A stretch of DNA of 64,000 nucleotides from NCBI RefSeq assembly GCF_009914755.1, contig NC_060933.1, one strand, 5' to 3'. Positions within the stretch are counted from its first letter, which is position 1. Each line of letters starts with the position of its first letter. This DNA comes from the human T2T-CHM13v2.0 reference genome, Homo sapiens. Of this stretch, positions 4,953 through 5,773 are shown in pieces. Both the position numbers and the translations under genes were made by a program. Below the pieces are notes generated by a model. It did no database searches and had not been told where the DNA came from. It saw only the letters and a program-made list of their open reading frames with translations.

Positions 4953-5773
4953 TGAGCCTAGTTATAATGATTTAAAATTCATGGTCCGACACCGCAATTA
5001 CTTTTGCACCAACCTAATTGATGTCTAAGTAGGTCATATTCTACCTGCAAAAAGAAAATTTCATCTATCCCTTTCACATAGATGGAAACCCACTATCTCC
5101 AGTGGACAGTTAACACCAAAGGCATCACAGAGAACTCATGGAGCTCAGCTGAGGAGGTTTCAGGGATTTTTCTATTTCCTTTTCTTGATTATGAGAGTCT
5201 GGGACTAGATGCTCTCCAGACCTGTGCCTAAAGACTCTTCAACCCTTTGAGATGGAGATGAGGGAGGGAATAGGGAACCCAGTTTAGTTTGGATTTCAGA
5301 TCCTTTTGTGGTTCATAAGCGTGATGATTGGGTTTCCATGTTCACGTGTGAGATATGCCTCCCTCAAACCTTGTTACAATGACATGGGCACCTTACCTAT
5401 CTGACATGAGAAAAACAAACGTGGATTTCAGATAAACAAAAAATAACTCTTTTAGTGTATATGTCCCATAGAATATGTGGACATATTTATCCTAAAAATA
5501 TTGTATGGGACATAGTTGTATTAAGAAACTGTTCATTGTTTATCTGAAGTTCAAATTTAACTGGGCATCCTCCTCAGCTGAGCTCCATGAGTTCTCTGTG
5601 ATGCCTTTGGTGTTAACTGTCCACTGGAGATAGTGGGTTTCCATCTATGTGAAAGGGATAGATGAAATTTTCTTTTTGCAGGTAGAATATGACCTACTTA
5701 GACATCAGTTAGGTTGGTGCAAAAGTAATTGTGGTGTCGGACCATGAATTTTAAATCATTATAACTAGGCTCA
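4953..5773. repeat. Inverted repeat: arms 4953-5157 and 5569-5773 (205 bp each, 2 mismatches), spacer 411 bp
   Basis: Manual reverse-complement alignment. Mismatches only at G4994/T5732 and T5018/G5708. Confidence 0.97.
5343..5348. promoter_or_regulatory. E-box CACGTG (T-flanked) ~715 bp upstream of the MLANA TSS; candidate MITF site
   Basis: ttCACGTGtg seen in the sequence. MLANA is an established MITF target, but occupancy of this particular site is inferred. Confidence 0.5.

What the first reader, a model, noticed from the sequence alone, without database searches (positions are those of the whole stretch)
4953..5773. Near-perfect 205-bp inverted duplication in the MLANA promoter: a potentially invertible or fold-back enhancer cassette
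Seen: 4953-5157 is the reverse complement of 5569-5773 with only 2 mismatches. The pair brackets a 411-bp spacer holding the CACGTG E-box and ends ~285 bp from the TSS. Each arm is the last 65 bp of Hsmar1 plus 140 bp of unique flank, so this is not an ordinary transposon TIR pair. Both arms share private departures from the Hsmar1 consensus (GTCCGACACC instead of GTCCAAAACC; loss of the right TA duplication). The rest of the element is far more decayed than 1%. Inference: the duplication is recent, or the arms are homogenised by gene conversion. Crossover between the arms would flip the spacer, giving a small recurrent promoter inversion that short reads would largely miss. The outer breakpoint of the left arm falls inside the Alu TSD (4946-4955).
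Basis: partly seen in the sequence, partly recalled or inferred. Interest (0 to 1): 0.8.

Follow-up and report, generated by a model that had tools for sequence, protein, structure and literature searches.

The report
Inverted copy inserted upstream of MLANA
A 203-base stretch beside an old mariner transposon was copied backwards and pasted 411 bases downstream, just upstream of the melan-A gene, leaving a near-perfect inverted repeat that looks like a scar of a DNA copying or repair error, not a switch.

Summary
4953-5157 and 5569-5773 are a 205-nt inverted repeat with 2 mismatches. Its non-transposon part has only these two copies in the whole T2T genome.

The origin can be read from the sequence. 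The right arm interrupts an old palindromic interspersed repeat. Removing exactly 203 nt (5571-5773) in silico restores that repeat through to its end at 5803 (85.7 to 107.2 bits). So the right arm is a clean, templated, reverse-complement insertion copied from 4953-5155. It has a 2-nt overlap at entry and no target loss or duplication. This matches the '3-2-1-4' template-switch or fold-back-synthesis pattern, but it is far longer than published events (median 12 nt, maximum 128 nt).

Both mismatches are derived in the copy. A clock against the Hsmar1 body (6.7% diverged) gives about 4 My (0.4-13) if there was no gene conversion.

Nothing supports an invertible cassette. CHM13 carries the ancestral spacer orientation, and two inversion catalogues gave no hit. 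Population and ape data were not available.

The CACGTG lies inside a decayed U13 pseudogene. Interest is moderate to low.

The parts
4953..5157 (.). Left arm, the source copy. 4953-5017 is the last 65 bp of an Hsmar1 element. 5018-5157 is single-copy flank.
   Evidence: It is contiguous, across an Alu insertion, with the Hsmar1 body at 4440-4654.
5158..5568 (.). 411-nt spacer. It holds single-copy sequence, the left half of an old palindromic interspersed repeat, a U13 pseudogene, and the centre and right half of the same repeat.
   Evidence: Profile of 19 family copies matches 5270-5301, 5418-5498 and 5496-5572. U13 match.
5569..5773 (.). Right arm, the derived copy. The inserted DNA is 5571-5773 (203 nt, equally 5572-5774). 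5569-5570 (CC) belongs to the interrupted repeat and overlaps the source by 2 nt.
   Evidence: Of the 132 trial excisions, the 203-nt one gives the best continuous match to the repeat profile (107.2 against 85.7 bits).
5774..5803 (+). Terminal 30 nt of the old palindromic repeat, cut off from the rest by the right arm.
   Evidence: the alignment runs to the family's end at 5803. In a cruder test, 19 of 858 control windows scored as high.
5300..5406 (+). U13 snoRNA-like retropseudogene, with a short A-rich tail and a 12-nt direct repeat TGGATTTCAGAT at 5290-5301 and 5422-5433. It contains the CACGTG at 5343-5348.
   Evidence: Rfam snoU13 103.3 bits. Flanks. 81-88% identical to the other copies listed, from 261 candidates. 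CACGTG.
4654..4946 (+). Alu inserted into the Hsmar1 element, with an 11-nt A-tail at 4936-4946. Its target-site duplication is at 4644-4654 and 4946-4956. The left arm begins inside the second copy.
   Evidence: 5 CpG left in 282 nt.
4992..5010 (-). Hsmar1 terminal-repeat core in the left arm. It retains the CpG.
   Evidence: The motif was recalled and then located in the window.
5716..5734 (+). The same terminal-repeat core in the right arm, with the CpG changed to TpG.

Best explanation
The right arm is a single templated insertion. A 3' DNA end at 5570, inside an old palindromic repeat, paired through 2 nt (CC against GG at 5156-5157) with sequence 411 nt upstream. The pairing was either on the same strand folded back or on the complementary template. 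The end was then extended for 203 nt, backwards across the flank and the last 65 bp of Hsmar1, to 4953. It was finally rejoined to the very next base of the original target.

This is a replication template switch of type '3-2-1-4' in the four-point model. The alternative, fold-back ('snap-back') synthesis on a resected double-strand-break end followed by end joining, gives the same product.

What is shown:
- which arm is the copy;
- the exact insertion limits;
- the 2-nt overlap;
- the absence of any target loss or duplication.

What is inferred:
- the enzymology;
- that the arms are alike because the event is young (roughly 0.4-13 My, in the ape lineage), not because they are homogenised;
- that the structure is a passive scar with no programmed function.

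Side effects of the insertion: it moves everything upstream 203 bp further from the MLANA start site. It places a second Hsmar1 end about 300 bp upstream of that start site. It also creates a 205-bp hairpin-capable repeat inside a BRD10 intron.
For: - Arms 205 nt with 2 mismatches. The flank is single-copy apart from the arms.
- The left arm is continuous with the Hsmar1 body. The right arm carries only the terminal 65 bp.
- The old repeat family reads straight through the insertion point in 19 other copies.
- Excising 5571-5773 raises the profile score from 85.7 to 107.2 bits and extends the alignment to the family end. It is the best of the 132 excisions tried.
- Both private changes are derived in the right arm. 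The left arm keeps the CpG and the T of the TA seen in most of the 24 other copies.
- Per-lineage arm divergence is 2/410 (0.49%), against 14/210 (6.7%) for the Hsmar1 body. Hsmar1 entered primates about 50 My ago (abstract of PMC9062482). That gives about 3.7 My.
- The four-point model describes type 3-2-1-4 as creating an inverted repeat. That type and its mirror case make up 31% of high-confidence human-chimp events (passages of PMC5453318).
- Fold-back templated inverted duplications at breaks are described in the abstract of PMC11724301.
Against: - No outgroup or second haplotype was available, so the pre-insertion state is inferred from family copies and not from an orthologue.
- The event is much larger and more distant than catalogued short-range switches: median 12 nt, maximum 128 nt, template required within 100 nt (passages of PMC7954356).
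- The exit junction shows no microhomology.
- The copy ends 7 nt from an Alu A-tail, inside the Alu's target-site duplication. A random stopping point does not explain this.
- The clock rests on 2 substitutions and ignores gene conversion.
Confidence: 0.65

Rival explanations
1. The inverted insertion is old, possibly older than the Alu, and the arms stay 99% alike through repeated arm-to-arm gene conversion, as in larger genomic palindromes.
For: The arm boundary lies inside the target-site duplication of an old Alu that has only 5 CpG left in 282 nt. If the Alu integrated at the edge of an existing repeat, the repeat is older than the Alu. Closely spaced inverted arms are a favourable substrate for conversion (established knowledge, recalled).
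Against: The arms are only 205 nt, near the lower limit for efficient homologous exchange in mammals (recalled). Nearly all Hsmar1 departures in the left arm are shared with the right arm, which a late copy explains most simply. There is no direct test without other species.
Confidence: 0.25
2. The repeat mediates recurrent inversion of the 411-nt spacer by crossover between the arms, so the promoter-upstream segment is polymorphic in orientation.
For: It has high-identity inverted arms, which is the architecture of repeat-mediated inversions. Such a small balanced change would be hard to detect.
Against: CHM13 has the ancestral orientation. No inversion was listed at chr9:5.889-5.890 Mb, or under MLANA, KIAA2026 or BRD10, in the supplements of PMC12229492. 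None was listed by coordinate in PMC13629690, where one file was unread. The arms are very short. In a 41-genome survey about 85% of inversions under 2 kb were ascribed to L1 twin priming (abstract of bioRxiv 10.1101/2021.12.20.472354).
Confidence: 0.07
3. The second arm is an assembly artefact, such as a fold-back chimeric read built into the T2T assembly.
For: None found. Only one assembly could be examined.
Against: The arms differ at 2 sites, one a typical CpG transition. The insertion is base-exact within an old repeat, with no loss of target. The repeat is far shorter than a long read.
Confidence: 0.02
4. The inverted copy was made in the same event as the Alu integration, for example by synthesis running off at the second-strand nick of target-primed reverse transcription.
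For: The source copy ends 3-4 nt from the right end of the Alu target-site duplication. I estimate the chance of such a coincidence at about 1-2% from the Alu density seen.
Against: The Alu is old (88% or less identity to the other Alus in the window; 5 CpG left). The arms would therefore again need long-term conversion. The copy also includes 4 nt of the duplicated target, not a clean run-off at the nick. I know of no described mechanism for this (recalled).
Confidence: 0.05

Closest known systems
Short-range template-switch mutations, four-point model type '3-2-1-4' (Loytynoja and Goldman 2017, PMC5453318; Walker et al. 2021, PMC7954356)
   Same: [quoted passage not shown] One step creates an inverted repeat or hairpin. 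An A/T tract lies nearby.
   Different: The copy is 203 nt from a template 411 nt away. In the great-ape set the median was 12 nt, the maximum 128 nt, and the template had to lie within 100 nt. The A-tract lies next to switch point 3, not point 1.
Fold-back ('snap-back') templated inverted insertions at double-strand breaks, by polymerase theta-type end joining or SD-MMEJ
   Same: It is an inverted templated insertion primed by minimal (2-nt) homology on the same strand, with a blunt second junction.
   Different: Reported events are mostly about 5-34 bp (abstract of PMC11724301; yeast). Here the copy is 203 nt, and the loop implies about 600 nt of single strand.
Inversions mediated by inverted repeats (NAHR)
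   Same: It has two highly identical arms in inverted orientation around a unique spacer.
   Different: The arms are 205 nt and the spacer 411 nt. For scale, the abstract of one ddPCR study (PMC7263195, listing) describes 3.1-742 kb inversions flanked by repeats of up to 134 kb. No second orientation has been observed here.
Hsmar1/MADE1 terminal inverted repeats
   Same: Both arms contain an Hsmar1 end with the transposase/SETMAR-binding core.
   Different: The two ends face each other with their outer sides inward. Each arm also carries 140 nt of non-transposon flank, and there is no flanking TA pair. So it is not a mobile unit.
Closely spaced inverted Alu pairs
   Same: It is a hairpin-capable inverted repeat a few hundred nt long, inside an intron (BRD10).
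   Different: Identity is 99% here, against 71-86% for the other 11 pairs in the window and 86.6% or less for the 15 pairs in 43 other loci.

Membership tests
Template-switch / fold-back templated inverted insertion | The inserted fragment is the reverse complement of nearby sequence on the same chromosome. | tested here: met
   205-nt arms with 2 mismatches, source 411 nt upstream. No other copy in the genome.
Template-switch / fold-back templated inverted insertion | The target is otherwise intact: the strand returns at or after the leaving point, with no target-site duplication. | tested here: met
   Excising exactly 203 nt restores the old repeat to its profile, 107.2 against 85.7 bits.
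Template-switch / fold-back templated inverted insertion | Microhomology at the switch junctions. | tested here: inconclusive
   There are 2 nt (CC) at the entry junction. At the exit there is none, apart from a 1-nt placement ambiguity.
Template-switch / fold-back templated inverted insertion | The ancestral sequence (outgroup) lacks the insertion. | not testable with these tools
   No primate or second human assembly is on hand. 19 paralogous family copies served as a proxy.
Repeat-mediated polymorphic inversion | Both orientations of the spacer exist among haplotypes. | not testable with these tools
   Only CHM13 was available, and it has the ancestral orientation. Catalogue look-ups were negative but incomplete.
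Repeat-mediated polymorphic inversion | Highly identical inverted arms flank the segment. | tested here: met
Mariner transposon or MITE (Hsmar1/MADE1) | Terminal repeats lie at the outer ends of the unit, with their outer sides facing outward, flanked by a TA duplication. | tested here: not met
   The Hsmar1 ends at 5017 and 5709 face each other. The arms extend 140 nt beyond the element ends. The arms read TT and CT where TA is expected.
Palindrome maintained by gene conversion | The arms cluster within species across related species. | not testable with these tools
   No orthologues are available.
Functional U13 snoRNA gene (RefSeq LOC124902341) | Close match to the functional family, and not a dispersed retro-copy. 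| tested here: not met
   It passes the Rfam threshold (103 bits). However, it is flanked by a 12-nt direct repeat and an A-rich tail, sits inside another repeat, and is only 81-88% identical to the other copies.

The most novel reading that the evidence does not exclude
The 203-nt inverted insertion is specific to humans or to African apes and may still be polymorphic. It would then be one of the longest single-step local template-switch insertions known. It would also have functional consequences:
- A 205-bp near-perfect hairpin 266 bp upstream of the MLANA start site, inside BRD10 pre-mRNA, could form dsRNA.
- A second SETMAR-binding Hsmar1 end faces the first.
- Occasional crossover or template switching between the arms could flip the spacer that carries the CACGTG site.

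Any of these could alter MLANA or BRD10 expression.
Probability: 0.08. Interest if true: 0.65.

Novelty: new member of a known kind. Interest (0 to 1): 0.35.

Why it matters
The locus is a clean, base-resolved example of a local inverted templated insertion about 200 nt long. Genome-wide scans for template switching were not designed to find events of this size, because they limited the template to within 100 nt. It shows that long near-perfect hairpins can arise in one step in human regulatory DNA.

For MLANA, it means the sequence between about -266 and -470 is a recent duplicate and not conserved promoter sequence. Short reads in the two arms will also map ambiguously.

If the insertion proves lineage-specific or polymorphic, it would be a natural test of whether a 205-bp palindromic repeat or a second SETMAR site affects a melanocyte promoter. 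If it is fixed and old, it would be a rare case of conversion between very short arms.

Tried and rejected
- Transposon TIR pair or MADE1-like unit: rejected.
- Transposase cutting as the cause: the copy runs uninterrupted across the Hsmar1 end, so no break occurred at the end.
- Other RNA families in 4000-6500: only U13, the two Alu halves (as SRP) and a sub-threshold mir-1268 match inside the Alu. No mir-548 hairpin was found.
- Other copies of Hsmar1 or of the old repeat inside the window: none, so copies were fetched from the genome.
- Literature:
  - No paper holds 'MLANA promoter' together with E-box and MITF.
  - The 8 papers with 'Melan-A/MART-1/MLANA promoter' were seen as listings only. 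One was read as passages and said nothing on promoter sequence.
  - The 15 papers listed, of 527 that hold two or more of MLANA, Hsmar1, inverted repeat, SETMAR and inverted duplication, all have MLANA count 0. The other 512 were not seen.
  - The 2003 MITF/MLANA paper was not held.
- Inversion catalogues: no hit in PMC12229492 or PMC13629690. One file of the latter was unread.
- Ape-specific variant tables of PMC6749001: only unrelated chr10 rows; three files were unread.
Loci already held were scanned instead.
- The name of the old palindromic repeat family was not determined.

Full report
**Observation**

The repeat finder reports arms 4953-5157 and 5569-5773, 205 nt, 99% complementary, 411 nt apart. 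A base-by-base comparison gives exactly two mismatches. Left 4994 G pairs against right 5732, so the right arm reads TG where the left keeps CG. Left 5018 T pairs against right 5708. Self-BLAST gives E 1.8e-101.

As single-stranded DNA the 821 nt fold at -303.7 kcal/mol, against -83.8 +/- 5.2 for 20 shuffles. The repeat stands out from its surroundings. The other 11 inverted pairs of 100 nt or more within 3 kb in the window are 71-86% complementary. The 15 such pairs in 135.5 kb of 43 unrelated loci reach at most 86.6%.

**Composition of the arms**

I aligned both arms with the 3' ends of 24 other Hsmar1 copies fetched from the same genome. Each arm holds the last 65 bp of Hsmar1 (4953-5017 on the left), followed by 140 nt that none of the other copies shares. 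A genome-wide search with 5009-5157 finds two places only, and they are the two arms.

Both arms read GTCCGACACC where most copies read GTCCAAAACC. The G also appears in several other copies. Both arms lack the usual TA after the element end, reading TT on the left and CT on the right. At both mismatched sites the left arm has the state seen in most other copies (the CpG, and the T of TA). Both private changes are therefore derived in the right arm.

The Hsmar1 body at 4440-4654 differs from the majority of the 24 copies at 14 of 210 aligned positions, 4 of them CpG-type.

**Which arm is the copy, and its exact limits**

The left arm continues into the Hsmar1 body across an Alu. The right arm sits inside a different, old repeat. 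A search with 5424-5568 found at least 424 candidate copies of a palindromic interspersed repeat. I did not establish its family name.

In 19 fetched copies the sequence reads on from the point corresponding to 5568 into a terminal stretch that, in the window, appears only after the right arm, at 5774-5803. A profile built from the 19 copies matches 5270-5301, 5418-5498 and 5496-5572.

I then removed trial segments in silico, using 12 start points and 11 lengths. The best continuous match is obtained by removing exactly 203 nt, 5571-5773 (or, equivalently, 5572-5774). The score rises from 85.7 to 107.2 bits and the alignment runs to the family's end at 5803. A cruder test of the 5774-5810 tail alone was only moderately significant: 19 of 858 control windows scored as high.

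The right arm is therefore a clean 203-nt insertion. The two bases 5569-5570 (CC) belong to the interrupted repeat and also match the source, giving a 2-nt overlap at the entry junction. The exit junction has none. There is no target duplication and no target loss.

**Mechanism**

A reverse-complement copy of nearby sequence, inserted with return to the next target base, is the '3-2-1-4' case of the four-point template-switch model. That case is described as creating an inverted repeat. Together with its mirror case it makes up 31% of high-confidence human-chimpanzee events (passages of PMC5453318).

The great-ape scan of Walker et al. found a median copied length of 12 nt and a maximum of 128 nt, required the template within 100 nt, and reported enrichment of poly(dA:dT) tracts (passages of PMC7954356). 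The present event, 203 nt copied from 411 nt away, is outside what that scan could see.

Fold-back synthesis on a resected break end followed by end joining gives the same product. Abstracts seen (PMC11724301, PMC4912351) describe such inverted templated insertions, mostly 5-34 bp. The sequence cannot tell the two routes apart.

**Age**

The per-lineage divergence of the arms is 2/410 = 0.49%, against 6.7% for the Hsmar1 body. With Hsmar1 entering primates about 50 My ago (abstract of PMC9062482), this scales to about 3.7 My. The Poisson range for two events gives about 0.4-13 My. This is an inference. It assumes no gene conversion and treats both changes as later mutations. If one or both are copying errors, the event is younger. 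Gene conversion between the arms would make it older, and I cannot exclude that (rival, 0.25).

**An unexplained coincidence**

The Alu at 4654-4946 has the target-site duplication ATGTGTTTGAG at 4644-4654 and 4946-4956. The source copy ends at 4953, 7 nt from the A-tail and 4 nt from the end of the duplication.

The Alu is old. Its identity to the other Alus in the window is at most 88%, and 5 CpG remain in 282 nt. My reading of it as an AluS type rests on recall. I estimate the chance of such a coincidence at about 1-2% from the Alu density.

Three explanations are possible, and only species comparison can choose between them:
- The A-tract stopped resection or synthesis.
- The Alu integrated at the edge of an existing repeat, which would make the repeat old.
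- It is chance.

**The spacer and the 'E-box'**

5300-5406 matches Rfam snoU13 at 103.3 bits and is annotated in RefSeq as a snoRNA gene. It is, however, followed by an A-rich tail and flanked by the 12-nt direct repeat TGGATTTCAGAT at 5290-5301 and 5422-5433. It lies inside the old repeat. It is 81-88% identical to the other copies listed, which came from 261 candidates. It is therefore a retropseudogene.

The only CACGTG in 4900-6100 lies inside it at 5343-5348. The Rfam consensus has a different sequence there, so the site arose by decay. The hexamer occurs 7 times in the window. I could not read any paper that maps MITF sites in this promoter.

**Invertibility**

In CHM13 the halves of the old repeat are collinear across the right arm, so the spacer is in the ancestral orientation. 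One haplotype says little.

Supplements of an inversion compilation (PMC12229492) hold nothing at chr9:5.889-5.890 Mb or under MLANA, KIAA2026 or BRD10. Those of PMC13629690 hold nothing at those coordinates, with one file unread. These coordinates rest on my recall that GRCh37 and GRCh38 place the MLANA start at 5,890,802. Such tables may also miss a 411-bp balanced change.

**Verdict**

The repeat is real, rare and well explained as a one-step inverted templated insertion. It is a long member of a known mutational class and not a transposon structure. Nothing shows it to be a switch. Its position, 266 bp upstream of the MLANA start and inside a BRD10 intron, makes lineage and population checks worthwhile. 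They are also simple to do.

Noticed in passing
window 5290-5433: RefSeq's U13 snoRNA gene LOC124902341 (5300-5406) looks like a dead retro-copy. It has a 12-nt direct repeat at 5290-5301 and 5422-5433 and an A-rich tail. It is nested in an older repeat and is 81-88% identical to the other copies.
   Followed up: yes
window 5270-5301, 5418-5570, 5774-5803: An old palindromic interspersed repeat (at least 424 candidate copies in the genome) is split twice, once by the U13 copy and once by the right arm. Its family name was not determined.
   Followed up: partly
window 4946-4956: The source copy of the inverted insertion ends 4 nt before the end of the Alu target-site duplication and 7 nt from the 11-nt A-tail. 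This coincidence is unexplained.
   Followed up: partly
window 5786: An alternative BRD10 exon (5786-8190, minus strand, hub table) ends 13 nt from the right arm. I saw no canonical poly(A) signal by eye. The end may reflect ambiguous read mapping in the two arms, or the hairpin itself.
   Followed up: no
window 4992-5010 and 5716-5734: Two Hsmar1 terminal-repeat cores face each other about 700 bp apart. The left keeps its CpG and the right has TpG. They are possible paired SETMAR-binding sites near the MLANA start.
   Followed up: no
window 5144-5153 and 5573-5582: A 10-nt perfect palindrome (CTCAGCTGAG) sits close to the inner end of each arm, next to the entry junction of the copy.
   Followed up: no
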